Sequence record: MN850583.1
Strand: one strand, 5' to 3'
Source: Escherichia phage glasur
Length of the DNA stretch: 42,507 bases
The notes under the pieces were generated by a model. It ran no database searches. It worked only from the letters and a program-made list of their open reading frames with translations, and was not told the DNA's origin. Positions 1-10,955 of the stretch are shown here, piece by piece. How positions within the stretch are numbered: position 1 is the first letter of the stretch; each line of letters opens with the position of its first letter. A program made the position numbers and the translations under genes.

Positions 1-23
1 TATCACTATAGTCACTTTCATAA
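1..23 (-). promoter_or_regulatory. Inverted exact copy of the 23-nt phage-promoter-like element (TTATGAAAGTGACTATAGTGATA on the minus strand), ending exactly at the window boundary
   Basis: Reverse complement of 1-23 is identical over 23 nt to 20845-20867. It matches the T7 promoter core ACTATAG in the same register. Orientation points out of the window. Confidence 0.45.
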
Positions 24-29
24 TTATCT

Positions 30-128
30 AATGATTACAGTAACTTATAACCTATCTGATAACGGTATCTATCTTATGCAATAACCTATTCAATCAAATA
101 TTTATTCTCAATGATTACAGTAACTTAT
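30..128. repeat. Two copies of a 19-nt direct repeat AATGATTACAGTAACTTAT (30-48 and 110-128) in the AT-rich left terminal region
   Basis: Read directly from the sequence; the copies are 80 bp apart and lie upstream of the early promoters. Confidence 0.7.
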
Positions 129-160
129 CCACTATTTGAGCTATTCAGTGAAAATAATTC

Positions 161-190
161 TTGCAAGTCTGATTAGCTTTATGCTGTAAT
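161..190 (+). promoter_or_regulatory. Host sigma70-type early promoter (TTGCAA-N18-TGTAAT with TGn extended -10)
   Basis: -35 TTGCAA at 161-166, -10 TGTAAT at 185-190 preceded by TGc. First of four similarly built promoters, analogous to the T7 A1-A3 arrangement. Confidence 0.5.
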
Positions 191-263
191 TCATCTCGCC
201 GGGTAGCAGAACATCGCTACACGGTGGCAAGACGGTAACACTGCTCTTTAACAATCTGGTGTG

Positions 264-292
264 TTGACAAGGCAAGCTCACTATGCTGTAAT
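264..292 (+). promoter_or_regulatory. Host sigma70-type early promoter (TTGACA-N17-TGTAAT, extended -10)
   Basis: Consensus -35 TTGACA at 264-269, 17-nt spacer, TGcTGTAAT with -10 at 287-292. Confidence 0.65.
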
Positions 293-400
293 GCTTCCAG
301 TCAGCCAGACAAGCCAAACAGTCATGGATAAAGACGTTAAAACCCTCGCAGGCTAACTGGTACGGTTTAATCATCTCAGAACGGGCGCTGATTAAAACGG

Positions 401-429
401 TTGACAGGATGAAACGAGTATGCTGTAAT
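401..429 (+). promoter_or_regulatory. Host sigma70-type early promoter (TTGACA-N17-TGTAAT, extended -10)
   Basis: TTGACA at 401-406, 17-nt spacer, TGcTGTAAT with -10 at 424-429. Confidence 0.65.
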
Positions 430-479
430 GCACACCAGATTGACAGGCAGCAAGCCAGTCAGTCAGAAGTAAAAAGTAG

Positions 480-508
480 TTGACACGCTGAATACGATGT
501 GATGTAAT
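480..508 (+). promoter_or_regulatory. Host sigma70-type early promoter (TTGACA-N17-TGTAAT)
   Basis: TTGACA at 480-485, 17-nt spacer, TGaTGTAAT with -10 at 503-508. Confidence 0.65.
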
Positions 509-986
509 CAGCACCGAGTTGAAAGGTTGCAAAACAACCTGCTCTGAGTGAACGTAAACAGGCCACGTAGTGTCTCGGCCTCATGGGTATCCGGCGCAGC
601 TAGGAACTGGTGAGGGCATCGCTGAAAAGCAACGGTATCGCAACATTGCTAACGCCGTAGGGGTAGCGCCCGATGCAAGGGAACGGAGAAGCGCGATAGA
701 CGCAGCGCAGTATCAGCACAATCCCAAACGTCTTATAAGGCGCGGAGTATAGCGGGTAGGTAGTCAAACGGCTTGTTAGCTGGCAACGGTGAGCAAGATA
801 CGCGACGGACTGCTGGAAGACTCCTGAGAGTGGATGCAGACAATATCCATGGCGCGAAATGGGCGGGGCGATTTTTCAGGGTAGTGAATCCGACAAGCCA
901 ATCAATGCCACTGAGTGCAGACTGTACGGCGCGTCACAATGGGTTCACTATCCACCTGAAAATAGCCAACAACTGGAGAAATAACT

Positions 987-1379
987 ATGTACCGTATCTA
1001 TGCAAGCGCATACCGCCAGAACAATGCTGAGTGTGTTAATCTGGCGCTTCATTGCAAGGCACTGCGAACGGTGCAGGATATGTTCGGAGTGATTCCGGTC
1101 ACACTGACAGGCAAGTTCGACAATGCGTATGAGTTAAGCATGGTCTTCCCTGTCGATGGAATCTACGAAATCAGACAGGCTGTTAAGCTGTTCTGTAAAG
1201 CCTTTGAACAGGACTGCATCATGGTAGTGACCGACGACAATGATGCAATCTTCATGGATTCACCATATCCGGGCAAGCCTGCTGGCAAGTTTGTCAGCAA
1301 GACAGAAGCGGAGATGGAGGCCGGGCAGTTCACTGCTTGGACTTACGATGGTGAGCAATTTTGGGTAGTGGAGGCGTAA
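987..1379 (+). CDS. Early protein of unknown function (130 aa)
   Basis: ORF track 987..1379. ATG preceded by GGAG about 8 nt upstream. First gene after the roughly 470-nt leader. Confidence 0.7.
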   Translation: MYRIYASAYRQNNAECVNLALHCKALRTVQDMFGVIPVTLTGKFDNAYELSMVFPVDGIYEIRQAVKLFCKAFEQDCIMVVTDDNDAIFMDSPYPGKPAGKFVSKTEAEMEAGQFTAWTYDGEQFWVVEA

Positions 1380-1380
1380 T

Positions 1381-1452
1381 ATGTTCACTGCACTCTGTGT
1401 GATAGCGGCGGCGTGCTGGCTGATTGACCAGCGCCTGTCTAAGCGAGCCTGA
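1381..1452 (+). CDS. Possible small hydrophobic peptide (23 aa, MFTALCVIAAACWLIDQRLSKRA)
   Basis: Below the ORF-track size cutoff. ATG sits 1 nt after the upstream stop with GGAGG 7 nt upstream; the peptide is hydrophobic. Confidence 0.35.
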   Translation: MFTALCVIAAACWLIDQRLSKRA

Positions 1453-1453
1453 T

Positions 1454-1537
1454 ATGTGGGACTTACTGGTAGCGTTGTTCTGGTTCGTCTTTGCAGGCTT
1501 GTGGATTTACTGGTTGACTCGTCCCAAATTATGGTGA
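1454..1537 (+). CDS. Possible small membrane peptide (27 aa, MWDLLVALFWFVFAGLWIYWLTRPKLW)
   Basis: ATG 1 nt after the previous stop; one predicted transmembrane helix; only a weak ribosome-binding site. Confidence 0.3.
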   Translation: MWDLLVALFWFVFAGLWIYWLTRPKLW

Positions 1538-1543
1538 CTGCCT

Positions 1544-1565
1544 AATGCGTCTTGCGAGGCGCATT
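1544..1565 (+). promoter_or_regulatory. Intergenic RNA hairpin with TCTTGCGAGG loop (candidate RNase III or processing site)
   Basis: Stem AATGCG/CGCATT around loop TCTTGCGAGG. Same loop family as the hairpins near 2143, 2498, 2906, 5328, 5632 and 25635. Confidence 0.4.
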
Positions 1566-1601
1566 GTGAAGTAACCAACCAACAACCCGACGAGGTGTAT
1601 C

Positions 1602-2129
1602 ATGACTACTGTTAAATATACTGCATTCAAAGATGCTGCGGCGCTGGACAAAGCTATCGAAGCGACTGTCAAAAAGGCGCACTCACTCCGTAACGATATT
1701 CAGAACGTTGCGGTCGGTATTATCCTGCACGCTTACCATCACGGCGACTACACTCGTGCTGAGTCGTTCACTCACCAACTGGGTGATGGCGTCCGTGGTA
1801 AGGCGCTGGTTGACTGGTTCGTCCAGTTCGGCGGCCTGATTGTGGGTGAGCATGAAGATGGCAAATCCGGCTTCGTTGGCTGGAAGGGTGCCGACTTCAT
1901 CAAAGAGAACATCGACAAGGCGAAAGCCACGATGTGGTGGACTTGCAAGCCAGAAGCGGCCTTTGATGGCTTCGACCTGCAAGATGCGCTCGAAAAGCTG
2001 ATTGCCAAAGCTGAAAAGGCAATGAACAAGGCGAACGAGCTGCGCCACGAAGGGCGCGATGAGGATGCGAACAAGGTTGTCGTGCCTCAGAACGTGCTGG
2101 ACGGCCTGCGCAAGCTGAAAGCTGCGTAA
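1602..2129 (+). CDS. Early protein of unknown function (175 aa)
   Basis: ORF track. GAGGTG about 7 nt upstream of the ATG. Confidence 0.75.
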   Translation: MTTVKYTAFKDAAALDKAIEATVKKAHSLRNDIQNVAVGIILHAYHHGDYTRAESFTHQLGDGVRGKALVDWFVQFGGLIVGEHEDGKSGFVGWKGADFIKENIDKAKATMWWTCKPEAAFDGFDLQDALEKLIAKAEKAMNKANELRHEGRDEDANKVVVPQNVLDGLRKLKAA

Positions 2130-2142
2130 GCGGGATTGACTC

Positions 2143-2179
2143 AAGCCATCTTGCGAGGTGGCTTTATGGCAATTCTGCC
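2143..2179 (+). promoter_or_regulatory. Leader element: hairpin (loop TCTTGCGAGG) followed by GGCAATTCTGCC (copy 1 of 4)
   Basis: Stem AAGCCA/TGGCTT, then GGCA-N4-TGCC at 2168-2179. The same two-part element precedes the genes at 2561, 2965 and 3584. Confidence 0.5.
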
Positions 2180-2202
2180 CCAACAATTACGGAGTATCAT
2201 CC

Positions 2203-2487
2203 ATGACCACTAAAACTGTTCTGGCCTACGTCACCAAGAAAGGCGAAGAAGTGTACGGCTATGCTGTGTCTATCGACGGCGGCCAAAACTACCTGCATCA
2301 CGTTCGTGAAGAAGGTGAACCGACCGACCATGATGGCATTCTGGAAACGCTGAAAGGCATTCCGCTGCCGCACGAAATCATCTGTATGCTGGCTGGCCAG
2401 ACGGAAGATGACCTGCAACTGCGTCACGGCGATGACCTGACCATTCAGGGTATCGGCAGCTTCGAAGCTGACGTAGACGACGAATAA
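2203..2487 (+). CDS. Small acidic protein (94 aa), member 1 of the tandem acidic array (C-terminal SFEAD motif)
   Basis: Internal ATG of track ORF 2158..2487 chosen because GGAG lies 8 nt upstream. Acidic composition; ends GIGSFEADVDDE. Confidence 0.65.
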   Translation: MTTKTVLAYVTKKGEEVYGYAVSIDGGQNYLHHVREEGEPTDHDGILETLKGIPLPHEIICMLAGQTEDDLQLRHGDDLTIQGIGSFEADVDDE

Positions 2488-2497
2488 GCGTTGTCCT

Positions 2498-2535
2498 GCT
2501 GCATCCTTGCGAGGGTGCAGCGTGGCAATACTGCC
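2498..2535 (+). promoter_or_regulatory. Leader element: hairpin (loop TCCTTGCGAGGG) followed by GGCAATACTGCC (copy 2 of 4)
   Basis: Stem GCTGCA/TGCAGC, then GGCAATACTGCC at 2524-2535. Confidence 0.5.
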
Positions 2536-2560
2536 TTATTCCAATCTGAGGATTAATCCT

Positions 2561-2899
2561 ATGTCTACACTGAAACTGGTACTGATTTCTAACATCGCTG
2601 CTGACGCTTTCGACGCTGATGACGTGGCAGAACTGCAACCGCAGACCTTCGTTGGCTTCCAGCGTGATGGCGAACCGGGCGCACTGGTTGTTGGCCCGAC
2701 TGGTGGTGACGGCGCGGAAGAAGTGAAAGCGCACTTCCACGAGGGCAACCTGCCGCCTGCACTGCCGCTGCAACTGGTTGCCATGTTCGAAGGTCTGGCA
2801 TTCGTCAGCCCGGACAACCTGAAAGAAGCGACCATCGAAGTCATCGCTGAGTACGAGCAGGACGGCGACGACGATGATGACGTGGACTTCTCTGCGTGA
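2561..2899 (+). CDS. Small acidic protein (112 aa), member 2 of the tandem acidic array (poly-Asp C-terminus)
   Basis: ATG at 2561 with TGAGGA upstream, inside track ORF 2507..2899. Ends ...EQDGDDDDDVDFSA. Confidence 0.65.
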   Translation: MSTLKLVLISNIAADAFDADDVAELQPQTFVGFQRDGEPGALVVGPTGGDGAEEVKAHFHEGNLPPALPLQLVAMFEGLAFVSPDNLKEATIEVIAEYEQDGDDDDDVDFSA

Positions 2900-2905
2900 T
2901 ACCTT

Positions 2906-2943
2906 ACTGCCTCGTTGCGACGGGGCAGTGCGGCAATCATGCC
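2906..2943 (+). promoter_or_regulatory. Leader element: hairpin (loop TCGTTGCGACGG) followed by GGCAATCATGCC (copy 3 of 4)
   Basis: Stem ACTGCC/GGCAGT, then GGCAATCATGCC at 2932-2943. Confidence 0.5.
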
Positions 2944-2964
2944 CAACCTAACTGGAGATTTACC

Positions 2965-3246
2965 ATGGCTACAATCAACGTGTATTCCCTGAGCAACGGC
3001 GGTCTGGCATTCATCGCTGGTGATAAGGTAGACGAAGCGCCGTCGCTGGGCGTGACGCCGAAACCGGAAGCCAGCCGTGATGATGTTATCGCGGAAGTCA
3101 AGGGTGCGCTGGAAGACCTCGGCGGTCTGCTGTTCGTCCTGAATGGTGGCAAGCTGTCGGTTGAAAAGCTGGACGCGCTGGAACCTGTCTTTGTTGAGAG
3201 CTTCGAAGCTGACAACATCGACCTCGCTGCTTTCGCTGACGCCTAA
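2965..3246 (+). CDS. Small acidic protein (93 aa), member 3 of the tandem acidic array; clear paralogue of the gene at 3584
   Basis: ATG at 2965 with GGAG upstream. N-terminus MATINVYSL..., central LGGLLFVLNGG and C-terminal SFEAD match the 3584 product. Confidence 0.7.
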   Translation: MATINVYSLSNGGLAFIAGDKVDEAPSLGVTPKPEASRDDVIAEVKGALEDLGGLLFVLNGGKLSVEKLDALEPVFVESFEADNIDLAAFADA

Positions 3247-3284
3247 GCATAACCCGAAACCCACAACCAAAGAGGACAATCAAC

Positions 3285-3515
3285 ATGGCTAAGTTTGAAC
3301 TGGTACGCTTCATTGACCCGAACGATGGCGAAGAAACCTTCGCGCAGTTTGCTGATGACCGCTCGCTGGTCGCCATCTACAACACTGAGCGCACGGCGCG
3401 GCGCTGGTTCAAGGAAGATGAAGACATGGACAGCATCGAAGAAGCGCTGGCTATGCCGGGCTACGCTGAGGCTGTCGAGGCAGCACTGAAAGGCGAAGTC
3501 GTAGCGACTGCGTGA
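3285..3515 (+). CDS. Small acidic protein of unknown function (76 aa)
   Basis: ORF track. AGAGGA ribosome-binding site upstream of the ATG. Confidence 0.7.
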   Translation: MAKFELVRFIDPNDGEETFAQFADDRSLVAIYNTERTARRWFKEDEDMDSIEEALAMPGYAEAVEAALKGEVVATA

Positions 3516-3522
3516 TTTCTGT

Positions 3523-3561
3523 CAGCCCATCCATAGCGGTGGGCTGTAGGGCAATCATGCC
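3523..3561 (+). promoter_or_regulatory. Leader element: hairpin (7-bp stem CAGCCCA/TGGGCTG) followed by GGCAATCATGCC (copy 4 of 4)
   Basis: Hairpin at 3523-3546, then GGCAATCATGCC at 3550-3561. Confidence 0.5.
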
Positions 3562-3583
3562 ACAACAACTGAGGGTATACACC

Positions 3584-3892
3584 ATGGCAACTATCAACGT
3601 TTTCAAAACTATCACTGGCTCACTGGTATTCGTAGTGGGTGAACTGCGTGAAGATGCACCAATCGTTGGCGTGTCTCTGCGTGAAGGGGCAACCGAGGCT
3701 GACGCCATCGCTGAGATTCGTCAGAACATTGAGAACCTCGGCGGCCTGTTCTTCCTGCTGCAAGGTGGCAGCCTGAACCTCGCTAAGTTGCAGGAGCATG
3801 AGCCTGTGCTCGTGACCAGCTTCGAAGCGGAAGACGTAGACGCCAGTGACTTCGAAGCCAGCCGCGCTGACGAAGAAGAAGCAGGCGAGTAA
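3584..3892 (+). CDS. Small acidic protein (102 aa), member 4 of the tandem acidic array; paralogue of the gene at 2965
   Basis: ATG at 3584 with GAGGG upstream. MATINVFKT..., LGGLFFLLQGG, SFEAEDVDASDFEAS and an acidic tail. Confidence 0.7.
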   Translation: MATINVFKTITGSLVFVVGELREDAPIVGVSLREGATEADAIAEIRQNIENLGGLFFLLQGGSLNLAKLQEHEPVLVTSFEAEDVDASDFEASRADEEEAGE

Positions 3893-4001
3893 TGAGCGCC
3901 ATCGAGGTGGCACTGATGTTGGGCTGTCATGCAGGTATTGGCAGCCTCGTCATCTACATCGTTGGCGCGGCACGCAAATCATACGATAGGAGAACCAAGC
4001 T

Positions 4002-4178
4002 ATGAAACTTGCAGTATCGCGCAGCGGTGCAAGCCATGCGGCACACAAGTTGCACTTCCTGTTCCACTCGCTGTACCTTACAGCGGCTGCGATGGAGGGT
4101 CACTTGTTCTACAGCCTCATGGCTGGCGGCACCTTACTGTTCATGGTTGGCACGGCGGTGCTGGGCAATGAACATTAA
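4002..4178 (+). CDS. Possible small membrane protein (58 aa)
   Basis: ATG with strong AGGAGA 8 nt upstream and a hydrophobic C-terminal half. Alternative overlapping frames (3892..4005, 3929..4171, 4201..4341) cannot be excluded. Confidence 0.35.
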   Translation: MKLAVSRSGASHAAHKLHFLFHSLYLTAAAMEGHLFYSLMAGGTLLFMVGTAVLGNEH

Positions 4179-4405
4179 TCTGTTACAACGGGTCAAGGGT
4201 ATGGAGCGTCGGCACTGGGAGACGGCCATCATCCTTAAGGTAAGCATAAGCGCTGGACTTGCTGCTGCTTATTTCCTGCCAACCACCGCAGCAATAGCCG
4301 TTGGTATCAGCACCAACCTGCTATGGTTGTGGAAGTTGTAAGCAGTGGATTACTCAAGGCTGTCCAGCGGGTAACCTTTTTGAAATCCATTGACGAGAGG
4401 GGAGC

Positions 4406-4744
4406 ATGGCACTACATCGAGTGAAGGTAATGCGTGGGCCTGACTTCGAAGACGGACAAGAGATTGCTGCATTGCAGTACCGCTTGCCGTCAGGTCAGGA
4501 GGGGCTGGTCATCATCGACCAGATTGAAATCATGGGTGAGCACATGCTGATTGCTGATGCCACCGATGAGCAAATCATTGAGCGCTGCAAGGCATACGCC
4601 GGGGGCAGACCGTTCATCATCGACCTGATGAATGACCAGCACATCAATGCTGATGGTTCGCTGCTGTTCAAGGCGTGGCTTCATGCTCTCACAACAATCT
4701 ACGAAGGGGAGATGTATCTCTTTGGAGTAGGCACCGAGGGTTAA
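4406..4744 (+). CDS. Early protein of unknown function (112 aa)
   Basis: ORF track. Strong GAGAGGGGAG ribosome-binding site. Confidence 0.75.
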   Translation: MALHRVKVMRGPDFEDGQEIAALQYRLPSGQEGLVIIDQIEIMGEHMLIADATDEQIIERCKAYAGGRPFIIDLMNDQHINADGSLLFKAWLHALTTIYEGEMYLFGVGTEG

Positions 4745-4746
4745 TC

Positions 4747-5061
4747 ATGAAAGTAAGCAAAGGATATCTGTTCGTGCTGTTGATGCTGGCTACCCTGTAT
4801 CTCAGCACATGCCACATCGCACTGGCTGCTGATGTGGAGAAGGTGCATTTGGATGCGTATGACGTACCGCTGGGCGCACCTGATGGACAGGTGTACTCTG
4901 CTTGCGTCATTGACCTACGCAAAGGTGGCACTGTCAGCACACTGGCCTACGTTGGTGAGTGTGAGGATGTGCTGCCACACCTGAAAGAAAAGCTGGAGCA
5001 TGATGGCGTGACCACCATCGTGACTCTCTCAATCAACGGTCATAACATCAACCTAACGTGA
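4747..5061 (+). CDS. Predicted secreted small protein (104 aa) with N-terminal signal peptide
   Basis: ATG at 4747 with GAGGG upstream. N-terminus MKVSKGYLFVLLMLATLYLSTCHIALA-ADV has a hydrophobic core and an A-x-A cleavage site. Confidence 0.6.
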   Translation: MKVSKGYLFVLLMLATLYLSTCHIALAADVEKVHLDAYDVPLGAPDGQVYSACVIDLRKGGTVSTLAYVGECEDVLPHLKEKLEHDGVTTIVTLSINGHNINLT

Positions 5062-5069
5062 GGTTTTAA

Positions 5070-5321
5070 ATGAGCACTCAAGCTAAGATTGTAATTCTGC
5101 GCAACGACTATGGCCGTCCTACTCCGTTCGGCACCTTCTGTCCGTTCCTCGATACCATTGAGGGTAAAGAGTACGATGTACTCATCCTCGAACCGGGTGA
5201 GGTGGACGCCGAAGGGGATGAAGTTGACAAGCGCTCGGTCAGTTTCCGCGATGAAGTGGGTGACTTAGCTGGCGCACACATTGACTACCATGAAGGTAAG
5301 TCATTCAAGTTCGTCGAGTAA
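5070..5321 (+). CDS. Early protein of unknown function (83 aa), acidic
   Basis: ORF track. GAGG about 10 nt upstream. Confidence 0.65.
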   Translation: MSTQAKIVILRNDYGRPTPFGTFCPFLDTIEGKEYDVLILEPGEVDAEGDEVDKRSVSFRDEVGDLAGAHIDYHEGKSFKFVE

Positions 5322-5327
5322 TAATCT

Positions 5328-5351
5328 ACAGCCTCTGCTTGCGGGGGCTGT
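5328..5351 (+). promoter_or_regulatory. Intergenic RNA hairpin (stem ACAGCC/GGCTGT, loop TCTGCTTGCGGG)
   Basis: Lies directly after a stop codon and upstream of the next ribosome-binding site; same loop family as the other early hairpins. Confidence 0.4.
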
Positions 5352-5379
5352 GTCACTAACAAATAAACGAGAGGCAAAC

Positions 5380-5625
5380 ATGGCTAAGTATGACGTATAC
5401 AAAGACGGCGAAGGTGACTGGACTATCGTACCGGAAGGGCAGAAGATTGCAGCCCCGGTCGATGTGATTGCAATGAACGGCGCGGCGGCTGAGACACTGG
5501 CTGATGTGCAGCGCATCGCAACCACCAAGCGTGCAGGCTTCGAAGCTAACCGCACGCATGTCAAGTCGCAGGCTGTCATCAATCGCTTCGGCCCGTATGA
5601 ACTGGCCGGGACTATCGAAGTGTGA
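5380..5625 (+). CDS. Early protein of unknown function (81 aa)
   Basis: ATG at 5380 with GAGAGG upstream, inside track ORF 5281..5625. Confidence 0.65.
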   Translation: MAKYDVYKDGEGDWTIVPEGQKIAAPVDVIAMNGAAAETLADVQRIATTKRAGFEANRTHVKSQAVINRFGPYELAGTIEV

Positions 5626-5631
5626 TAAGCT

Positions 5632-5656
5632 ACTGCCCCTGCGTGCCGGGGGCAGT
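5632..5656 (+). promoter_or_regulatory. Intergenic RNA hairpin (8-bp stem ACTGCCCC/GGGGCAGT, loop TGCGTGCCG)
   Basis: Read directly from the sequence; sits between two genes. Confidence 0.4.
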
Positions 5657-5684
5657 GTCATTATCAAACGATGGAGGTAACATC

Positions 5685-5969
5685 ATGGTGCTGGCATCTG
5701 AATCAATCATTGAGCACGCTGCTGATATCCGGGCGGCGGTTGAAAAGCGCGGGGTCGCAGCTACCCGTGGTCATCTCTCTGGCAACGGTGGCCTGCGTGG
5801 TCACAGCGTAGGCGGTGTGTTCCCCTGCGTTATCTTTGCTCGTGGCAATCCTAATGTGAAGCTCGACTGGTGCTTCCTCACACCAGCGGGTGATGAGTTC
5901 GATGGCTTCATTAGTTATGAGGATGCGTATGCAGCCGCGCAAGAATGGCTGGAGAAAAGAGAGGTGTAA
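5685..5969 (+). CDS. Early protein of unknown function (94 aa)
   Basis: ATG at 5685 with GGAGG upstream, inside track ORF 5622..5969. Confidence 0.65.
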   Translation: MVLASESIIEHAADIRAAVEKRGVAATRGHLSGNGGLRGHSVGGVFPCVIFARGNPNVKLDWCFLTPAGDEFDGFISYEDAYAAAQEWLEKREV

Positions 5970-5970
5970 C

Positions 5971-6264
5971 ATGAGCAGAAGTGCTAAGTGGGATGCGCTG
6001 GTACAGTGGGTGAAGGATAGCTTTGGGCCACCGCCTACCCCTGACCACGATGACTCGCCGTTCCAATACGTCGAGAAGAAAACGCAGGAGCTTAAGCTGG
6101 GCGACTACGTTGTAGCATACGGTGGATACATCCAGCGCATCGGTGCCGTTGAGTATGATGGCAGCCGACTGGTTGTAACCAAGCTGGGGCATAGCCCTGA
6201 ACGTGAATGGCAGGCGTTTGAAGACGACGAGTTCACAATCCGCACACTGAAAGAAGGAAAGTAA
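5971..6264 (+). CDS. Early protein of unknown function (97 aa)
   Basis: ATG at 5971 with GAGAGG upstream, inside track ORF 5890..6264. Confidence 0.65.
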   Translation: MSRSAKWDALVQWVKDSFGPPPTPDHDDSPFQYVEKKTQELKLGDYVVAYGGYIQRIGAVEYDGSRLVVTKLGHSPEREWQAFEDDEFTIRTLKEGK

Positions 6265-6266
6265 TC

Positions 6267-6782
6267 ATGGCTATTGACTTTAAATTATTCAACGCCGAGC
6301 AACTTGAAACTGTCAAGTCTCTGGCTGAGTTCATCGACAACCACCCGGAGCTGAGCGAACTGGTTGAGTTCAAGGGTGGCTACCTGCCGAAGCAAAGTTA
6401 CATCGGCGCGGTGCGTAAAGGTCGTGAAGGTATGCTGGATATTATTCCGCAGACCAGAACCGGGGCGCTGCTGGCACGCAACGTCAGCGTGCTGATTGGC
6501 ATGAACGTGAAGCGTGCCAGTGAGCAGGGCAATGCGGCTGAGGTTGAGACGCTGCGCCTGACGGGTACGCTCGCAGCTAAGGCCATGTCGGAACCGGACA
6601 TTGCCGAGCGCTATCACGACTGGTACATGGCGTGCGCTAATGTGCCAAGCGATATCAGTGAGACGACGCTGGGCCTGCTGTTCGTCGGTGAGTTCATCGA
6701 CGCAACCATCCGTGCAGTCAGCGGTCAGGTGGGTGAATTAATTCAGGCAATGCAGCAGGCCAAGAATGCAACCCGTCACTAA
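6267..6782 (+). CDS. Protein of unknown function (171 aa), last gene of the early module
   Basis: ORF track. AGGAA ribosome-binding site. Confidence 0.75.
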   Translation: MAIDFKLFNAEQLETVKSLAEFIDNHPELSELVEFKGGYLPKQSYIGAVRKGREGMLDIIPQTRTGALLARNVSVLIGMNVKRASEQGNAAEVETLRLTGTLAAKAMSEPDIAERYHDWYMACANVPSDISETTLGLLFVGEFIDATIRAVSGQVGELIQAMQQAKNATRH

Positions 6783-6800
6783 GCTCACCGTAACCAAATC

Positions 6801-6824
6801 ACCCACCGGATTATTCTGGTGGGT
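6801..6824 (+). terminator. Hairpin at the early/middle module boundary (stem ACCCACC/GGTGGGT); possible terminator or processing site
   Basis: 7-bp stem with 10-nt loop just after the stop of the 6267 gene and upstream of the promoter-like element at 6971. There is no U-run, so this is not a canonical intrinsic terminator. Confidence 0.3.
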
Positions 6825-6970
6825 AGTTGATAAGCTGCAACCAAATAAACCTTTGGCTGTGCGTGATACAAAGTGGGAAGCCGAGAGTAAACTCGAAGAC
6901 CTTCAACGTATTATGCGGAATGTTATTCCAGCTTAGCCATCTACTCATGCCAGTTATTATTTAGCTGGCA

Positions 6971-6993
6971 TTATGAAGGTGACTATATTGGAC
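6971..6993 (+). promoter_or_regulatory. Phage-promoter-like element, variant copy (TTATGAAgGTGACTATAtTGgAc)
   Basis: 19/23 identical to the 20845-20867 element and contains GTGACTATA. Placed directly upstream of the first gene of the replication module. Confidence 0.5.
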
Positions 6994-7007
6994 AACCCGG
7001 AGGAAAT

Positions 7008-7208
7008 ATGTTTCGTGTATTAATGTTATTCGCACTTGTCGTTATATTGTGGGGCGCGTTATGGGTAGGTGTTGCCTATTTCATTCAGCCCTACATTGGC
7101 GAACAGCTTACCTCTGTAATTGGTACGCTGCTGGGCTTTGTTGTTGGCGCAGTTGGTATGACCAAGTGCATTGACATTGGCTGGAGTAAGGGGTGGGTGA
7201 AATGGTAA
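7008..7208 (+). CDS. Small membrane protein (66 aa, two predicted transmembrane helices)
   Basis: ORF track. GGAGG ribosome-binding site. Hydrophobic segments LMLFALVVILWGALWVGVAYFI and VIGTLLGFVVGAVGM. Confidence 0.65.
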   Translation: MFRVLMLFALVVILWGALWVGVAYFIQPYIGEQLTSVIGTLLGFVVGAVGMTKCIDIGWSKGWVKW

Positions 7209-7642
7209 AGCCAAAGTACAAAGTCGGTGATGAAATCGTGGGCGACGATGGCACTGGCACCCGGTCGGGTAAGCTGGGTATCATCGCATGGGTTAACCCT
7301 GACCGCCGAGCGTGGGAGCGCAGCGGGGAGACTCGTTACATCGTGAGCTGGATTGGTGAGCGCCTCAATGCGCAGCCGGATATCAGCCACTACAAATCTG
7401 ATTGGCTGGAGGACAACACCAGTCTGGTCAGCACGCCAGCAGAGAAGCGCGGTCGGTTCATGTGTCTGCTTGAGGGTGGCAGCACGCCGCCGAAGATTGA
7501 GCACATCACTGAACGTGAAGCGCGTGATGAAGCTGAGCGTCTGGCTGAGCGCCACGGTGGTACTGTCCGTGTGCTGCAAGTTGTAGCCAGCGTGAAGATG
7601 AAGAAGAAGATTCAGTACATACCGGACTGGGATAACGAATGA
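7202..7642 (+). CDS. Protein of unknown function (about 147 aa)
   Basis: Track ORF 7193..7642; the ATG at 7202 is preferred over the GTG at 7193. Confidence 0.65.
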   Translation: MVKPKYKVGDEIVGDDGTGTRSGKLGIIAWVNPDRRAWERSGETRYIVSWIGERLNAQPDISHYKSDWLEDNTSLVSTPAEKRGRFMCLLEGGSTPPKIEHITEREARDEAERLAERHGGTVRVLQVVASVKMKKKIQYIPDWDNE

Positions 7643-8349
7643 TGAAATCAGTGAGCAACGACGAGTGGCCGGAGCTGGCGAAGCGTCTGCCTGTAGGACA
7701 AAAGCGAAGGACGTTTCACAGTTGCTCGCGGTCATTCAACAAGACCAACTTCGAGTATGGCCGTGCGCCGGATTACATCTGGTGCAAGTGCCACCGCTGT
7801 GGGTACAGCCAGAAGCGTGACCTGACTCACGCTGTGTATGTGCCGCCAGCCGAGGTGCAGGTGAAGGTGCCGACTGATGTGGTGCCTATCACTGAGGTGA
7901 TTGCCAAGCAACCACGGCTGCTGCTGCCAGTGCTGGAGCGGGAGAACCTGATGCCACACCTGTCACTCCTGACTGCAAGCCCAACGTATGGCAGGCTGTA
8001 TCTGCCGGACGACACGGGCAGCTACTGTGGTCTGGACTACACGGGCAGGCAGTTCATCCCGTGGCGCTCGCCGCATAAGCATAGCTTGGCGATGAAGGTC
8101 AGTCCTCGTGGTGACGCGGAGACTAACTGCCTCTGGATTTATGGTGAGGTGGATGAGTATCTCCAGCAGGTGCGCGATGGTGGCAACTGTGCATTCGTTC
8201 CGAACGTGGATGATGCAACGTTGCAGGCTCTGGTCAGTGTGACGCTGGCGTATGGGTACAACCTCGTGGTCATCTGCCACCACCCAAGCGCCCAACGTAT
8301 CCGCAGGGAGCTGCGTATTGTGGGGCGTGTGCAAATCGTAGGAGAGTGA
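7639..8349 (+). CDS. Putative DNA primase (Cys-rich N-terminal zinc-binding region)
   Basis: Cysteine cluster HSCSRS...CKCHRC near the N-terminus and position immediately upstream of the helicase gene, as in phiKMV-like phages with separate primase and helicase. Assignment is mainly by position. Confidence 0.45.
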   Translation: MMKSVSNDEWPELAKRLPVGQKRRTFHSCSRSFNKTNFEYGRAPDYIWCKCHRCGYSQKRDLTHAVYVPPAEVQVKVPTDVVPITEVIAKQPRLLLPVLERENLMPHLSLLTASPTYGRLYLPDDTGSYCGLDYTGRQFIPWRSPHKHSLAMKVSPRGDAETNCLWIYGEVDEYLQQVRDGGNCAFVPNVDDATLQALVSVTLAYGYNLVVICHHPSAQRIRRELRIVGRVQIVGE

Positions 8350-8350
8350 T

Positions 8351-9616
8351 GTGCTTGACAAGCTGTTGTTAACGGTGATGCGCGAGCGCGGGAAGTTCAA
8401 CTCCCTGCGACACGCCATCCCGGAAGATACGATGAGCCAGACCACGAGCTATATGCTCAAGGCTTACGGCTCATACTTTGATGCGTTCCCGGACAGTGAC
8501 TACATTGACATTGACACGCTGGGTACACACGTTCGTTTAAAGACAGGCAGCACGCCTGAACAGATGGCAGCCTTTGATTCGTTGTGCTCGCAGCTTCGAG
8601 AGTACAAGCCAACGAAGGAACAGAAGGAAGGTGTGCTTGACCAGCTCGTCGAGTTGGATACCGCTGGCCGTGCTAACCTGCTAATGCAGAGGTACGACAA
8701 TGGTGAGGAACTGGATATTATCTATGAGCTGGGCCGTCTTGCTGAGGGCGCACGTCGCAGCCGGGGGCAGTCATCTGTCACTGATTACGTGGACGATGAT
8801 GTGGTTGATATTCTCAACCGGACGGATGATAATCACGGCCTCAAGTTCGGTCTGCTCTGCTTGCAAGACAGCGTTCGCGTACTTCTACCCGGCGACTCCG
8901 TTGCCATCGGTGCTCGACCTGACAGCGGAAAGACTTCCTTCATCGCGTTTAACCTTACGCGAATGGCGGCGACAGCAGCGAAGCTCTATCCGGGCAGGCC
9001 AATCCTCTGGTTCAACAACGAGGGGCAGGGCATCAACATCATCCCGCGCATCTACCAAGCGGCGCTCAACTGCACGCTCCCGGAACTGAAAGAGCTGGGA
9101 GAGGACAGGGCTAAGCTGCACGCTGCGTATGCCAAAGCGCTGGGTGCGCCAGCCAACATCATCCGTGTGAAGGATATGCACGGCGCGTCGCTGGCGAAAG
9201 CTGAGCAGGTTATCGAAGCGATGAACCCATGCGTTGTGGTGTGGGATATGTTGGCGAACTTCAAGCTGTCTGTCTCCGATGCCAACAGCAACAAGGCGTC
9301 GCAGGTTGAGCAGCTATGGCAGGAGGTACGTGAGCTGGCCGTGCGCCACGACTTCGTATCAATGGCCACGGTGCAGGTATCAGCCGATGGCAAGGATGAT
9401 ATGTTCCCTGCGCTGGATGCACTCAAGGATTCCAAGACTGGTATCCAAGGTGCGACTGATGTTATCGTCATGCTCGGCAGCGTGGATGACCCATCGCTGG
9501 CAGCGCGGCGCGGCGTCAGCACTCCGAAGAACAAACGCCAGATTGCTGGGCGTCCATCCAACGTGCGGTCGCAGGTTCACTTCTTTGCTGACCGCTGCCA
9601 ATTTGAGGATATGTAA
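8351..9616 (+). CDS. DnaB-like replicative DNA helicase (T7 gp4 helicase-domain type)
   Basis: Walker A GARPDSGKTSF and Walker-B-like VVVWDM; 421 aa. GTG start with GGAGAG upstream. Confidence 0.75.
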   Translation: MLDKLLLTVMRERGKFNSLRHAIPEDTMSQTTSYMLKAYGSYFDAFPDSDYIDIDTLGTHVRLKTGSTPEQMAAFDSLCSQLREYKPTKEQKEGVLDQLVELDTAGRANLLMQRYDNGEELDIIYELGRLAEGARRSRGQSSVTDYVDDDVVDILNRTDDNHGLKFGLLCLQDSVRVLLPGDSVAIGARPDSGKTSFIAFNLTRMAATAAKLYPGRPILWFNNEGQGINIIPRIYQAALNCTLPELKELGEDRAKLHAAYAKALGAPANIIRVKDMHGASLAKAEQVIEAMNPCVVVWDMLANFKLSVSDANSNKASQVEQLWQEVRELAVRHDFVSMATVQVSADGKDDMFPALDALKDSKTGIQGATDVIVMLGSVDDPSLAARRGVSTPKNKRQIAGRPSNVRSQVHFFADRCQFEDM

Positions 9617-9960: not shown

Positions 9961-10124
9961 AGGGGCGCAGCTATCGCCGTTGCTCTTGCGGTGGGTGCCT
10001 GCTGGTTGAGCAGGTCAAGGGCAAAGCCACTGGCAAACCGCTGGTGATTTATGAATGTGAGAAGTGTGGAGCGAAGCAGTATGGAAGACAAGGTGTATCG
10101 AGCAGCACCCTTAACCCAGCGTGA
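9957..10124 (+). CDS. Possible zinc-ribbon mini-protein (about 55 aa; CSCGGC ... CEKC)
   Basis: GTG-initiated ORF below the track cutoff with two CxxC-type pairs. Overlaps the next ORF in another frame, so it is uncertain. Confidence 0.3.
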   Translation: MKGRSYRRCSCGGCLLVEQVKGKATGKPLVIYECEKCGAKQYGRQGVSSSTLNPA

Positions 10125-10945: not shown

Positions 10946-10955
10946 CGGGGGATTG

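What the first reader, a model, noticed from the sequence alone, without database searches (positions are those of the whole stretch)
2130..3892. Array of four tandem acidic paralogues, each preceded by a conserved hairpin plus GGCAAT-N2-TGCC leader
Four consecutive small, very acidic proteins (2203, 2561, 2965, 3584) share C-terminal SFEA(D/E) or poly-Asp tails. The products of 2965 and 3584 are clearly paralogous (MATINV..., LGGLxFxLxGG, SFEA). Each gene is preceded by the same bipartite leader: a stem-loop with a TTGCGAGG-type loop, then GGCAAT(a/c/t)(a/c)TGCC, then about 25 nt, the ribosome-binding site and ATG. The leader is conserved better than the proteins, which argues for a function at RNA or DNA level, such as a processing site, translational operator or protein-binding site. 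The proteins resemble in composition DNA-mimic anti-restriction proteins such as T7 Ocr, so this could be a diversified anti-defence array with shared post-transcriptional control.
Basis: partly seen in the sequence, partly recalled or inferred. Interest (0 to 1): 0.65.

Follow-up and report, generated by a model that had tools for sequence, protein, structure and literature searches.

The report
RNase III sites flanking anti-defence genes
The repeated "leader" in front of these small acidic phage genes is almost certainly a T7-type RNase III cutting site that chops the early transcript into separate, end-protected messages for anti-defence proteins; this is a familiar arrangement, with one unexplained extra, an invariant 12-base block.

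Summary
The window is the genome of a Bonnellvirus (T7 relative), apparently Escherichia phage glasur. The repeated leader is real: GGCAATNNTGCC occurs exactly 4 times (0.15 expected), always on the + strand about 20-25 nt before a ribosome-binding site, and each copy follows a hairpin. The whole element is a ~50-nt irregular hairpin of about 20 bp, supported by compensatory changes in 31 distinct copies from related phages. Leader 1 shares ACUCAAG-stem-CUUUAUG with T7 R0.3, R0.5, R1.1 and R18.5. A covariance model built only from T7 and T3 RNase III sites recovers it (E about 1e-3) and finds further sites in the window. I read the leaders as RNase III processing sites.

By homology, the cut falls just 5' of the 12-mer, which can then refold into a 4-bp hairpin at the new 5' end. 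That role is inferred, not shown.

Only the products of 2965 and 3584 are demonstrable paralogues; the four proteins form three orphan families. No similarity to Ocr or ArdA was found. Orthologues of 3584 (Forsur-7) and probably 2203 (usur-3) are already listed in the literature as anti-Avs proteins.

Verdict: a known kind of element in unannotated form, with one novel detail. Modest interest.

The parts
263..431 (+). Two near-identical sigma-70-like early promoters (TTGACA-N17-TGTAAT at about 264-292 and 401-429). They presumably drive the polycistronic early transcript that carries the array.
   Evidence: Direct repeat family D14 and reading of the sequence. The promoter scanner did not list them because the second hexamer has G at position 2. 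Function is inferred by analogy with T7 A1-A3.
987..1379 (+). First early gene: S-adenosylmethionine lyase (T3 gene 0.3-type anti-restriction SAMase).
   Evidence: Pfam PF23780, E 3e-27. Annotated as SAMase in forsur and J8-65.
1541..1587 (+). Leader-like hairpin before gene 1602-2129. It has the same CUUGCGAGG top and U.G step and an interrupted lower stem, but no 12-mer. Candidate further RNase III site.
   Evidence: MFE fold of 1375-1605. Not detected by either covariance model.
2130..2179 (+). Leader 1: RNase III-type irregular hairpin. 5' arm 2130-2141, upper stem 2143-2151/2156-2164, loop UGCG 2152-2155, 3' arm = 12-mer 2168-2179. The predicted cut lies between U2167 and G2168.
   Evidence: MFE fold -24 to -27 kcal/mol. 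CTCAAG-N-CTTTATG signature shared with T7 R0.3, R0.5, R1.1 and R18.5; 1 hit against 0.02 expected. The T7/T3-derived model R2 gives E 9e-4.
2203..2487 (+). Acidic protein P1 (94 aa, pI 4.39, net -14). 99% identical to usur_49, which by gene order is 'usur-3', listed as an anti-Avs gene.
   Evidence: No Pfam or PHROG family.
2488..2535 (+). Leader 2: 5' arm 2488-2495, upper stem 2498-2507/2512-2521, loop UGCG, 12-mer 2524-2535.
   Evidence: Compensatory A-U to G-C change in orthologues. R1 E 1e-14. Not detected by R2.
2561..2899 (+). Acidic protein P2 (112 aa, pI 4.05, net -20, poly-Asp tail). Separate orphan family.
   Evidence: AF2 pLDDT 79.7. BFVD top hit is a glasur protein at 100% identity; no hit to the P3/P4 family.
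2894..2943 (+). Leader 3: the 5' arm 2894-2903 includes the last codon and stop codon of P2. Upper stem 2906-2915/2920-2929, loop UGCG, 12-mer 2932-2943.
   Evidence: C-G to U-A and G-C to C-G compensatory changes in orthologues. R1 E 7.5e-16.
2965..3246 (+). Acidic protein P3 (93 aa), paralogue of P4. Same family as Lidtsur-6 (33% identity).
3285..3515 (+). Fifth acidic gene (76 aa, pI 4.21) with no leader. Predicted to share a dicistronic processed mRNA with P3.
   Evidence: The 38-nt spacer is unstructured, -0.2 kcal/mol. Charge.
3510..3561 (+). Leader 4: the 5' arm 3510-3520 includes the GCG-TGA end of the 76-aa gene. Upper stem 3523-3531/3538-3546, loop CAUAGC, 12-mer 3550-3561.
   Evidence: A-U to U-A flips with the U.G step retained in LF82-23 and Lidtsur. 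R2 E 0.5. R1 E 1e-14.
3584..3892 (+). Acidic protein P4 (102 aa). 99% identical to forsur_34, which I map to 'Forsur-7', a catalogued inhibitor of Salmonella enterica Avs3.
   Evidence: AF2 pLDDT 85.8. Fold matches only uncharacterised early phage proteins.
4339..4395 (+). Canonical T7-like RNase III site candidate without the 12-mer, just before gene 4406-4744. It closes the 3' end of the P4 message.
   Evidence: Best hit of the T7/T3-derived model R2 in the whole window, E 2e-5.

Best explanation
PROPOSED MECHANISM.
- The four leaders are T7-type RNase III processing signals in the early polycistronic transcript of a Bonnellvirus.
- Host RNA polymerase starts at the promoters near 264 and 401 and transcribes rightward (inferred).
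- Each leader folds co-transcriptionally into a hairpin of about 50 nt. It has a lower stem of 9-11 bp, made of the end of the upstream gene plus the stop-codon region paired with GGCAAUNNUGC. Above that come a small internal loop, an upper stem of 9-11 bp carrying an A-U/U.G step that matches the RNase III distal box, and a loop of 4-6 nt. The fold and its covariation are shown.
- E. coli RNase III cuts once on the 3' side of the internal loop, within about 2 nt of the first G of the 12-mer. This is inferred by homology with T7 CUUUAU^G.
- The upstream message keeps the upper hairpin as a 3' cap against exonucleases.
- The downstream message starts with GGCAAUNNUGCC. Freed from its partner, this refolds into a 4-bp/4-nt hairpin of about -3.6 kcal/mol at the very 5' end. 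An unstructured C/A-rich spacer and the Shine-Dalgarno sequence follow. I propose this 5' hairpin shields the 5'-monophosphate end from RNase E (inferred).

NET EFFECT. The early genes are delivered as separate, end-protected mono- or dicistronic mRNAs. The genes themselves are small acidic anti-defence proteins. The P3/P4 family, and probably P1, are published anti-Avs inhibitors.

SIDE EFFECT. Because the leaders are conserved while the genes between them vary, they also act as homology blocks at which genes are swapped or deleted between related phages.
For: POSITION AND COUNT. The 12-mer occurs 4 times, + strand only, against 0.15 expected.

FOLD.
- All four leaders fold into the long hairpin as MFE. 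It is favoured by 3.5-7.7 kcal/mol over the conformer containing the mini-hairpin.
- Across 48 copies (31 distinct) from 14 genomes, 87% of cells are paired, against 39-49% when the partner is slid.
- 8 of 16 pairs show changes on both sides. There are 54 double-change cells against 22.8 in shuffles (0 of 500 reach the observed value).
- The two variable bases inside the 12-mer covary with the 5' arm: UA 15, GC 10, CG 1. L018 copies show it as well.
- Two further phage contigs carry the same arms around entirely different upper stems.
- G.U pairs are kept only on the + strand reading, which points to RNA.

HOMOLOGY TO KNOWN SITES.
- CTCAAG-N12-30-CTTTATG hits exactly T7 R0.3, R0.5, R1.1 and R18.5 in T7, and exactly leader 1 in the window, where 0.02 hits are expected.
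- T3's sites are annotated stem_loops with the same signature.
- Model R2, built only from 7 T7 and 5 T3 sites, finds five hits in the whole window, all + strand and intergenic: 4339-4395 (E 2e-5), leader 1 (9e-4), 25618-25675 (0.022), 6930-6988 (0.14) and leader 4 (0.5).

KNOWN BIOLOGY.
- The T7 early precursor is cut co-transcriptionally at five sites into mono- and dicistronic mRNAs (PMC4858673; PMC3867540).
- Internal loops restrict cleavage to one strand and leave protective 3' hairpins (PMC1540722).
- A 5'-terminal stem-loop can stabilise E. coli mRNA (Emory et al. 1992, as cited in PMC2777011).

THE 12-MER AS A MODULE OF ITS OWN.
- In Lidtsur and J8-65 a fifth leader type has a complete T7-like hairpin with its own lower stem. 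GGCAAUAAUGCC follows directly as a separate hairpin.
- All four processed leaders fold with ((((....)))) at their 5' end.

GENES.
Against: - No cleavage data exist for any Bonnellvirus.
- Leaders 2 and 3 are not detected by the T7/T3 model, and leader 4 only marginally.
- The reverse test is not significant. The Bonnellvirus model on T7 gives only E 2-4 for R18.5 and R0.5.
- G-C pairs next to the scissile bond can allow RNase III binding without cleavage (PMC1540722). I could not place the proximal box precisely, so some leaders might bind the enzyme and stay uncut.
- The exact T7 cut position (CUUUAU^G) rests on my recollection of Dunn & Studier 1983. The four recalled coordinates all fall on the same U^G, which is reassuring, but it is not a held source.
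- The mini-hairpin has no covariation support, because GGCA/UGCC never varies.
- The loop bases A5 and U6 are also invariant, which a simple hairpin does not explain.
- In the fifth leader type an analogous cut would leave about 13 unpaired nt 5' of the mini-hairpin. That fits a strictly 5'-terminal protective role poorly.
Confidence: 0.72

Rival explanations
1. The invariant 12-mer is a sequence-specific binding site on the RNA for a phage or host protein, such as a translational repressor or activator that co-regulates the anti-defence genes. The hairpin, RNase III site or not, only presents it.
For: GGCAAU and UGCC are invariant in all 48 copies of five leader types, while the stems around them change freely. 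The loop bases A and U are invariant too, which base pairing alone does not require. The 12-mer stands alone as a module in the fifth leader type. It sits at a fixed distance, about 10-12 nt, upstream of the Shine-Dalgarno sequence.
Against: No candidate binding protein is known. The acidic proteins encoded here (pI about 4) are poor RNA binders. The invariance can be explained without a protein by double duty: each base must pair in two alternative structures, so any change needs three coordinated mutations. For example, the invariant G.U at columns 11/91 keeps the U that pairs with A in the mini-hairpin. No Rfam family matches.
Confidence: 0.15
2. The leaders act mainly at DNA level, as conserved recombination or cassette-boundary sequences. 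They would promote exchange, duplication and loss of early anti-defence genes, in the manner of the promoter-stem-loop cassettes of T4-type phages.
For: The same leader type precedes different genes in different phages. Leader 4 precedes MATINV... in the window, forsur and ROV85 but MAKVTAYY... in Kc261, RZ4, HHU8 and others. Leader 1 precedes a P2-like gene in Lidtsur and the 76-aa gene in J8-65. Deletions end at leaders: forsur lacks P2, ROV85 lacks P1-P3, and usur has a truncated P3. Leaders are more conserved than the genes.
Against: Stems are kept through compensatory changes and strand-specific G.U pairs. That signals selection on an RNA structure, not on DNA sequence identity. Recombination at conserved blocks is an expected by-product of any conserved intergenic element. 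No sigma-70 promoter accompanies the hairpins, so the defining promoter half of the T4-type cassette is absent.
Confidence: 0.08
3. The hairpin plus 12-mer is a transcription signal: a promoter for the phage RNA polymerase or an alternative sigma factor, a terminator or attenuator, or an antitermination site.
For: In T7 several phage promoters lie next to RNase III sites. GGCA-N4-TGCC is a DNA palindrome. TGGCA faintly recalls the -24 box of sigma-54 promoters.
Against: There are only four copies, all in the host-transcribed early region and none before middle or late genes. No multi-copy 20-mer family exists in the genome. The GG-to-GC spacing is 7 nt, not the 10 nt of sigma-54 sites (sequence). 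No sigma-70-like promoter or intrinsic terminator overlaps the leaders, and only leader 1 has any U run after the stem. The stem sequence varies while pairing is kept, the opposite of what a duplex-DNA promoter shows.
Confidence: 0.04

Closest known systems
RNase III processing signals of phage T7 and T3 early mRNA (R0.3, R0.5, R1, R1.1, R1.3; also R4.7 and R18.5)
   Same: Intercistronic position in a unidirectional early transcript of an Autographiviridae phage. Hairpin of about 50-60 nt with upper stem, internal loop and lower stem. A-U/U.G distal-box step. Leader 1 shares ACUCAAG...CUUUAUG. The first gene downstream of the promoters is a T3-like SAMase.
   Different: The 3' arm is an invariant GGCAAUNNUGCC instead of T7's GAU(U/A)NUCAC. 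It can refold into a 5'-terminal hairpin and occurs as a free-standing module in one leader type. Stems are more G+C-rich. Leaders 2-4 have diverged beyond detection by a T7/T3 profile. Cleavage is untested.
5'-terminal stem-loop stabilisers of E. coli mRNAs (ompA 5' UTR type; Emory, Bouvet and Belasco 1992, cited in PMC2777011)
   Same: A short hairpin predicted to begin at or within about 2 nt of the mRNA 5' end, followed by a single-stranded leader and the ribosome-binding site.
   Different: Here the 5' end would be created by RNase III, not by transcription initiation, and would carry a monophosphate. The hairpin is only 4 bp (about -3.6 kcal/mol). It is masked in the precursor by the lower stem. 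Its effect on stability is untested.
Anti-Avs early proteins of Bonnellvirus phages (Lidtsur-6, Forsur-7, usur-3 and others; Gao et al. 2022, Science eabm4096, as catalogued in 10.1101/2022.08.12.503731, PMC13223576 and 10.1101/2025.06.06.658234)
   Same: P4 is 99% identical to forsur_34. P3 and P4 are homologous to Lidtsur CDS 6 (33% and 22.6% identity; Foldseek TM 0.74-0.77). P1 is 99% identical to usur_49.
   Different: My mapping of the published gene numbers to these proteins is inferred from gene order and from the reported under-25% identity of the Lidtsur-6/Forsur-7 pair. The primary paper was not available. Nothing is published, as far as I could find, on P2 or the 76-aa protein, or on the leaders.
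Ocr (T7 gp0.3) and ArdA DNA-mimic anti-restriction proteins
   Same: Small, very acidic, early-expressed and next to the anti-restriction position of the genome.
   Different: No sequence, profile or fold similarity. The AF2 model of P4 is a compact alpha/beta domain, not an elongated helical DNA-like dimer. The anti-restriction slot here is filled by a SAMase.
PeSL (promoter-early stem-loop) mobile regulatory cassettes of T4-type phages (Arbiol et al. 2010, from my own knowledge)
   Same: A conserved stem-loop-containing intergenic element repeated between small, variable early genes, with gene shuffling at the elements.
   Different: No promoter is part of the element. The structure is an RNase III-type long hairpin rather than a terminator-like stem-loop.

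Membership tests
T7-group RNase III processing signals | Lies between genes in a co-directional polycistronic transcript of a T7-like (Autographiviridae) phage | tested here: met
   The window is 98.6% identical to Bonnellvirus forsur. All genes are on the + strand. The leaders span stop codon to ribosome-binding site.
T7-group RNase III processing signals | Irregular hairpin of about two helical turns: upper stem, internal loop or bulge, lower stem | tested here: met
   The MFE of all four leaders has a 9-11 bp upper stem plus a 9-11 bp lower stem with small internal loops, -24 to -30 kcal/mol. T7 and T3 sites folded the same way.
T7-group RNase III processing signals | Structure, not sequence, maintained in evolution | tested here: met
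   87% of cells paired against 39-49% in slid controls. 8 of 16 pairs have double changes; 54 double-change cells against 22.8 shuffled.
T7-group RNase III processing signals | Distal box (U-A pair next to a U.G wobble) in the upper stem, about 10 nt from the scissile bond | tested here: met
   A-U/U.G in leaders 1, 2 and 4; C-G/U.G in leader 3. The U.G step is retained through stem turnover in orthologues. The definition comes from PMC1540722. The distance to the predicted cut is 9-10 nt (sequence).
T7-group RNase III processing signals | Similarity to a sequence-plus-structure profile of established T7/T3 sites | tested here: inconclusive
   With model R2, leader 1 gives E 9e-4, leader 4 gives E 0.5, and leaders 2 and 3 are not reported. 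The reverse search with the Bonnellvirus model on T7 gives E 2-4. The CTCAAG...CTTTATG signature is shared by leader 1 only. Leaders 2-4 are tied to leader 1 through model R1 (E 1e-14 to 1e-16).
T7-group RNase III processing signals | Cut by RNase III in vivo (rnc-dependent 5' and 3' ends) or in vitro | not testable with these tools
   No transcript data are available, and no paper on Bonnellvirus transcription was found.
Ocr/ArdA-type DNA-mimic anti-restriction proteins | Sequence or fold relationship to Ocr, ArdA or another solved DNA mimic | tested here: not met
Ocr/ArdA-type DNA-mimic anti-restriction proteins | Strong net negative charge | tested here: met
   Net -11 to -20, pI 4.05-4.39, the most acidic proteins of the genome. 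This is necessary but far from sufficient.
Ocr/ArdA-type DNA-mimic anti-restriction proteins | Binds and blocks type I restriction enzymes | not testable with these tools
   Needs plating or biochemical assays.
Bonnellvirus anti-Avs proteins (Lidtsur-6/Forsur-7 family) | Homology to Lidtsur-6 and Forsur-7 | tested here: met
   P4 is 99% identical to forsur_34. Lidtsur CDS 6 against P4 gives 22.6% identity (E 1e-6) and against P3 33% (E 2e-8). Foldseek TM 0.74/0.77. This matches the reported under-25% identity with FATCAT p 4.65e-12 for Lidtsur 6 and Forsur 7. The number-to-gene mapping is inferred.
Bonnellvirus anti-Avs proteins (Lidtsur-6/Forsur-7 family) | Inhibits Avs (STAND NTPase) defence | not testable with these tools
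   Reported for the orthologues: Forsur_7, Lidtsur_6 and Lidtsur_17 against Salmonella enterica Avs3 (EVADES supplement; lists). Not tested for this phage's own proteins.
5'-terminal stabiliser stem-loops | Hairpin starting within a few nucleotides of the mature 5' end | tested here: inconclusive
   The 12-mer folds as a 4-bp hairpin of -3.5 to -3.7 kcal/mol and does so in all four processed leaders. The 5' end itself is only predicted. The fifth leader type would leave about 13 nt unpaired.
T4-type PeSL cassettes | Stem-loop coupled to an early sigma-70 promoter | tested here: not met
   No promoter-like site in or next to any leader.

The most novel reading that the evidence does not exclude
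The invariant GGCAAUNNUGCC would be a built-in conformational switch. In the precursor it is the 3' arm of an RNase III site. Once the enzyme has cut, the same 12 bases snap into a hairpin at the first nucleotide of the new mRNA and shield its 5'-monophosphate from RNase E. Together with the 3' hairpin left by the next site, this would make a portable 'cut-and-cap' cassette. Any small gene dropped between two leaders would be expressed as a stable message. That would explain why fast-evolving anti-defence genes are shuffled between these leaders in Bonnellvirus genomes.
Probability: 0.3. Interest if true: 0.55.

Novelty: new variant of a known kind. Interest (0 to 1): 0.33.

Why it matters
If the reading is right, three things follow.
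- It extends the classic T7 RNase III processing scheme to a distant branch of the T7-like phages, where it has never been annotated.
- It tells annotators that the 'hypothetical' genes at 2203-3892 are individually processed anti-defence messages, two families of which already have published anti-Avs activity.
- The one new element is the invariant 12-mer. It could be a simple, transplantable device for protecting the 5' end of RNase III-generated mRNAs, of practical use in phage and synthetic-operon engineering. It would also help explain how anti-defence genes are exchanged as cassettes.

None of this overturns current understanding.

Tried and rejected
LEADER: READINGS TRIED AND DROPPED.
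- Rfam scan of 1-12000 at E up to 5: no family.
- Sigma-54 promoter: the GG-to-GC spacing is 7 nt, not 10 (sequence). Rejected.
- Sigma-70 promoter or intrinsic terminator at the leaders: none found.
- Phage-polymerase promoter: only four copies, no repeated 20-mer family, and the stems covary. Rejected.
- N4-type DNA hairpin promoter: considered because of the short loops. Rejected because there is no virion polymerase context and the strand-specific G.U pairs point to RNA.

LEADER: SEARCHES THAT LED NOWHERE.
- The Bonnellvirus covariance model on T7 was not significant. It is dominated by the invariant 12-mer.
- More distant relatives found through the upstream 175-aa gene (L019-L022, 41-48% identity) have other hairpins but no 12-mer.
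- A DNA-pattern scan of IMG/VR for 5' arm plus 12-mer was mostly chance matches. Only 3 of 80 loci held real elements.

PROTEINS.
- Pfam, PHROGs and PDB sequence searches: nothing.
- Word-indexed search with P4 alone: only 3 hits. A profile gave 26.
- Exhaustive profile search of 1.84 billion representatives: only 16 hits, all small phage proteins plus one spurious repeat protein.
- I could not superpose the P2 and P4 models directly, because coordinates are not exposed. I therefore used BFVD cross-hits as a proxy.

LITERATURE.
- The primary anti-Avs paper (PMC10028730) is not held.
- The EVADES supplements held as text carry no sequences or accessions for Forsur_7 or Lidtsur_6. The gene mapping had to be inferred.

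Full report
WHAT THE WINDOW IS

The 42,507-bp window is a complete genome of a Bonnellvirus (Autographiviridae, a T7 relative). It is 98.6% identical to Escherichia phage forsur over the early region. One of its proteins is 100% identical to a protein of phage glasur. Glasur's published length is exactly 42,507 bp (PMC7552041).

All genes read rightward. The left end holds two near-identical sigma-70-like promoters at about 264 and 401. These are followed by a T3-type SAM lyase at 987-1379 (Pfam PF23780, E 3e-27) and a conserved 175-aa gene at 1602-2129. The region of the finding comes next. The RNA polymerase candidate lies far downstream, at 18384-20819. The finding therefore sits in what should be the host-transcribed early region.

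CHECKING THE OBSERVATION

The exact GGCAATNNTGCC occurs four times, at 2168, 2524, 2932 and 3550. All copies are on the + strand and there are none elsewhere. The expectation is 0.15, and no shuffle reaches 4. Each copy follows a 9-11 bp hairpin and precedes a Shine-Dalgarno sequence and ATG by about 20-25 nt.

The genes start at 2203, 2561, 2965 and 3584. Their products have pI 4.05-4.39 and net charge -11 to -20. Together with a fifth, leaderless 76-aa gene at 3285-3515, they are the five most acidic proteins per residue in the genome.

The leaders are consistently better conserved than the genes behind them. This holds both between phages and between the four copies in the window.

Two parts of the description need correction:
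- The fourth hairpin has a different loop (CATAGC rather than the TTGCGAGG type).
- The 12-mer is not a free-standing second element (see the next section).

WHAT THE LEADER IS

Folding each leader with enough 5' flank shows that GGCAAUNNUGC pairs with the 10-12 nt 5' of the hairpin (GCGGGAUUGaCU, GCGUUGUC, GCGUGAUaCC, GCGUGAUUuCU). In leaders 3 and 4 this stretch contains the last codon and stop codon of the upstream gene; in leaders 1 and 2 it begins immediately after the stop codon.

The result is one irregular hairpin of about 50 nt:
- a lower stem of 9-11 bp;
- a small internal loop;
- an upper stem of 9-11 bp;
- a loop of 4-6 nt.

It is the minimum-free-energy structure in all four cases (-24 to -30 kcal/mol). 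It is favoured by 3.5-7.7 kcal/mol over any conformer in which the 12-mer folds on itself.

I collected the early regions of 12 related phages from GenBank and of further relatives from IMG/VR. The 12-mer occurs one to four times per early region. It is always on the coding strand and always in front of a small early gene.

Four orthologous leader types can be followed across genomes. Their stems change by compensatory substitutions:
- type 4: CAGCCCAUC/GGUGGGCUG against CUGCCCUUG/CGAGGGCAG;
- type 3: ACUGCCUCG/CGGGGCAGU against GUUGCCUCC/GGGGGCAAU;
- type 2: GCAUCC/GGGUGC against GCGCC/GGCGC.

On 48 copies (31 distinct), 87% of cells are paired, against 39-49% when the 3' partner is slid. Eight of 16 pairs show changes on both sides. 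There are 54 double-change cells against 22.8 in shuffles (a MAFFT-only alignment gives the same picture).

The two variable positions inside the 12-mer covary with the 5' arm (U-A 15, G-C 10, C-G 1). This establishes the lower stem and explains why exactly those two bases vary. Two further IMG/VR phage contigs of about 44 kb carry the same arms around completely different upper stems. G.U pairs are tolerated only when the + strand is read, so the structure is selected in RNA.

COMPARISON WITH T7 AND T3

I folded the T7 intergenic regions where RNase III is known to cut. The resemblance is direct:
- T7 R0.3: GAUAACUCAAGG-stem-CCUUUAUGAUAUUC
- leader 1: GAUUGACUCAAGCC-stem-GGCUUUAUGGCAAUUC

The pattern CTCAAG-N12-30-CTTTATG hits exactly R0.3, R0.5, R1.1 and R18.5 in T7. 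In the window it hits exactly once, at leader 1, where 0.02 hits are expected. The T3 record annotates its five early sites as 'RNase III recognition site' stem-loops, and they show the same signature.

A covariance model built only from seven T7 and five T3 sites was run without filters over both strands of the whole window. It returned five hits, all on the + strand and all intergenic:
- 4339-4395 (E 2e-5), a canonical T7-like site without the 12-mer;
- leader 1 (E 9e-4);
- 25618-25675 (E 0.022);
- 6930-6988 (E 0.14);
- leader 4 (E 0.5).

Leaders 2 and 3 are too diverged for this model. They are tied to leaders 1 and 4 by the Bonnellvirus model (E 1e-14 to 1e-16). The reverse search, the Bonnellvirus model on T7, is not significant (R18.5 E 2.3, R0.5 E 3.7). 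That model is dominated by the invariant 12-mer.

The upper stems carry an A-U pair next to a U.G wobble (C-G/U.G in leader 3), and this step survives complete turnover of the rest of the stem. It matches the canonical UA/UG distal box, a positive recognition determinant of E. coli RNase III (PMC1540722).

No Rfam family, sigma-70 promoter or intrinsic terminator coincides with the leaders.

I conclude that the leaders are T7-type RNase III processing signals. They are not annotated in any Bonnellvirus record I saw.

HOW IT PROBABLY WORKS

In T7, host polymerase makes an early precursor of about 7 kb. RNase III cuts it co-transcriptionally at five sites into mono- and dicistronic mRNAs, and this matters for the translation of some of them (PMC4858673; PMC3867540). 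Internal loops restrict the cut to one strand. They leave a 3' hairpin that protects the upstream product from exonucleases (PMC1540722).

By homology with T7 CUUUAU^G, leader 1 should be cut between U2167 and G2168. The T7 cut position is my recollection of Dunn & Studier 1983; all four recalled coordinates fall on that same U^G. For the other leaders, the alignment and the 9-10 nt distance from the U.G step place the cut within about 2 nt of the first G of the 12-mer.

The predicted processed messages are:
- P1 alone;
- P2 alone;
- P3 plus the 76-aa gene;
- P4 plus two tiny ORFs, ending at the 4339-4395 site.

Each message would end in a hairpin and begin with GGCAAUNNUGCC. Released from its partner, that 12-mer folds into a 4-bp, 4-nt-loop hairpin (-3.5 to -3.7 kcal/mol). 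It does so in all four processed leaders, leaving the C/A-rich spacer and the Shine-Dalgarno sequence open.

A 5'-terminal stem-loop is a known mRNA stabiliser in E. coli (Emory et al. 1992, cited in PMC2777011). An RNase III product carries the 5' monophosphate that otherwise attracts RNase E. I therefore propose that the 12-mer does double duty: 3' arm before the cut, 5' cap after it.

Three observations fit this proposal:
- The 12-mer is invariant while its 5' partner is variable and imperfect.
- The U of UGCC is always paired to G in the lower stem, never replaced by the stronger C. It is the base that pairs with A in the mini-hairpin.
- In a fifth leader type, in Lidtsur and J8-65, the RNase III-like hairpin has its own lower stem (GUGAUUAC/GUAACCAC). 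The 12-mer follows immediately as a separate hairpin, so it is a module in its own right.

This step remains an inference. There is no covariation to test the mini-hairpin. The invariant loop bases A and U are unexplained. In the fifth type, an analogous cut would leave about 13 unpaired nt ahead of the hairpin. A sequence-specific binding protein remains a live alternative.

THE PROTEINS

Only P3 and P4 are demonstrable paralogues (45.6% identity, E 1e-27). Clustering all genes that follow a leader in 15 genomes gives three main families: P3/P4 with the 'MAKVTAYY' proteins, P2, and P1.

Profile-profile comparison gives:
- P3/P4 against P1: E 2.6e-4, probability 42%, collinear over the C-terminal half including SFEA;
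- P3/P4 against P2: E 0.048, probability 1%;
- P2 against P1: E 0.06.

None of the proteins has a Pfam, PHROG or PDB relative. An exhaustive profile search of 1.84 billion representative proteins found only 16 members of the P3/P4 family, all phage proteins of about 90 aa.

There is thus no support for an Ocr or ArdA relationship beyond acidity.

WHAT THE LITERATURE ADDS

The names lidtsur-6, lidtsur-17, forsur-7, usur-3, mellemsur-6 and others are listed as anti-Avs (anti-AVAST) genes. The listings are attributed to Gao et al. 2022 (Science eabm4096). They appear in 10.1101/2022.08.12.503731 and PMC13223576.

The EVADES preprint records Forsur_7, Lidtsur_6 and Lidtsur_17 as inhibitors of Salmonella enterica Avs3. 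It notes that Lidtsur 6 and Forsur 7 are homologous at under 25% identity, with FATCAT p 4.65e-12.

My mapping to the window's genes runs as follows:
- Lidtsur's sixth CDS (L008:2223-2516) belongs to the P3/P4 family.
- That CDS is 22.6% identical to forsur_34 but 33% identical to forsur_32.
- Forsur-7 must therefore be forsur_34, which is 99% identical to the window's P4.
- By gene order, usur-3 is usur_49, 99% identical to P1.

The primary paper was not available, so this mapping is inferred. I found nothing on the leaders.

VERDICT

The 'DNA mimic' and 'four paralogues' ideas are not supported.

The element is a known kind of thing, T7-style RNase III sites punctuating an early operon of anti-defence genes. 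Here it appears in an unannotated lineage. It has one unusual feature, the invariant dual-use 12-mer, whose function is a testable hypothesis. Interest is modest.

Noticed in passing
window 4339-4395, 6930-6988, 25618-25675 (all + strand): Three further candidate T7-like RNase III sites without the 12-mer, found by the T7/T3-derived model (E 2e-5, 0.14, 0.022). All are intergenic. The third lies at the junction of two late genes (24632-25624 and 25624-26229).
   Followed up: partly
window 1541-1587: A hairpin before the 175-aa gene has the same CUUGCGAGG top and U.G step as leaders 1-3 and an interrupted lower stem, but lacks the 12-mer. It may be an older or degenerate member of the leader family.
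   Followed up: partly
L008:1046-1110 (Lidtsur) and L011:2525-2590 (J8-65): A fifth leader type. A complete T7-like hairpin with its own lower stem is followed directly by GGCAAUAAUGCC as a separate mini-hairpin. Its 5' arm (GCGUGAUUACUGAC) is almost the same as that of leader 4, as if 13 nt (GGAUUGUAACCAC) had been inserted before the 12-mer.
   Followed up: partly
window 3550-4405 compared with L002:2808-3128, L005:5245-5565 and others: Cassette replacement behind leader 4. The window, forsur and ROV85 carry P4 (MATINVF...) plus two tiny ORFs and an extra RNase III-like site. Kc261, RZ4, HHU8, LF82-23 and aldrigsur carry a different family member (MAKVTAYY...) directly followed by the homologue of 4406-4744. 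Other rearrangements also end at leaders: forsur has lost P2 between leaders 2 and 3, ROV85 has lost P1-P3, and usur has a truncated P3.
   Followed up: partly
window 6267-6782: This 171-aa protein is 40% identical to Lidtsur CDS 17 (L008:5056-5571). By gene order that CDS is 'Lidtsur-17', also catalogued as an anti-Avs protein.
   Followed up: partly
window 30-59/110-139 and 263-294/400-431: Two pairs of direct repeats in the non-coding left end. The second pair looks like duplicated strong sigma-70 promoters (TTGACA-N17-TGTAAT). The function of the first pair (AATGATTACAGTAACTTAT...) is unknown.
   Followed up: no
window 23830-23913: A run of imperfect CAG/CAA-rich 15-18 nt repeats (Gln/Pro-rich peptide) inside the 411-aa ORF 23375-24610.
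   Followed up: no
window 2457-2482, 3198-3223, 3817-3842: The SFEA(D/E) motif of P1, P3 and P4 is also similar at DNA level (AGCTTCGAAGCNGA, 73-77% over 26 nt). This hints that the C-terminal strand-plus-acidic-tail module is homologous or exchanged between otherwise diverged genes.
   Followed up: no
L029 (IMGVR_UViG_2974512834_000001) and L034 (IMGVR_UViG_645948473_000001): Two phage contigs of about 44 kb outside the set of named Bonnellvirus genomes each carry a leader-4-like element with identical arms and 12-mer but unrelated upper-stem sequence. One is almost the T7 R0.3 stem with a UGCG loop.
   Followed up: partly
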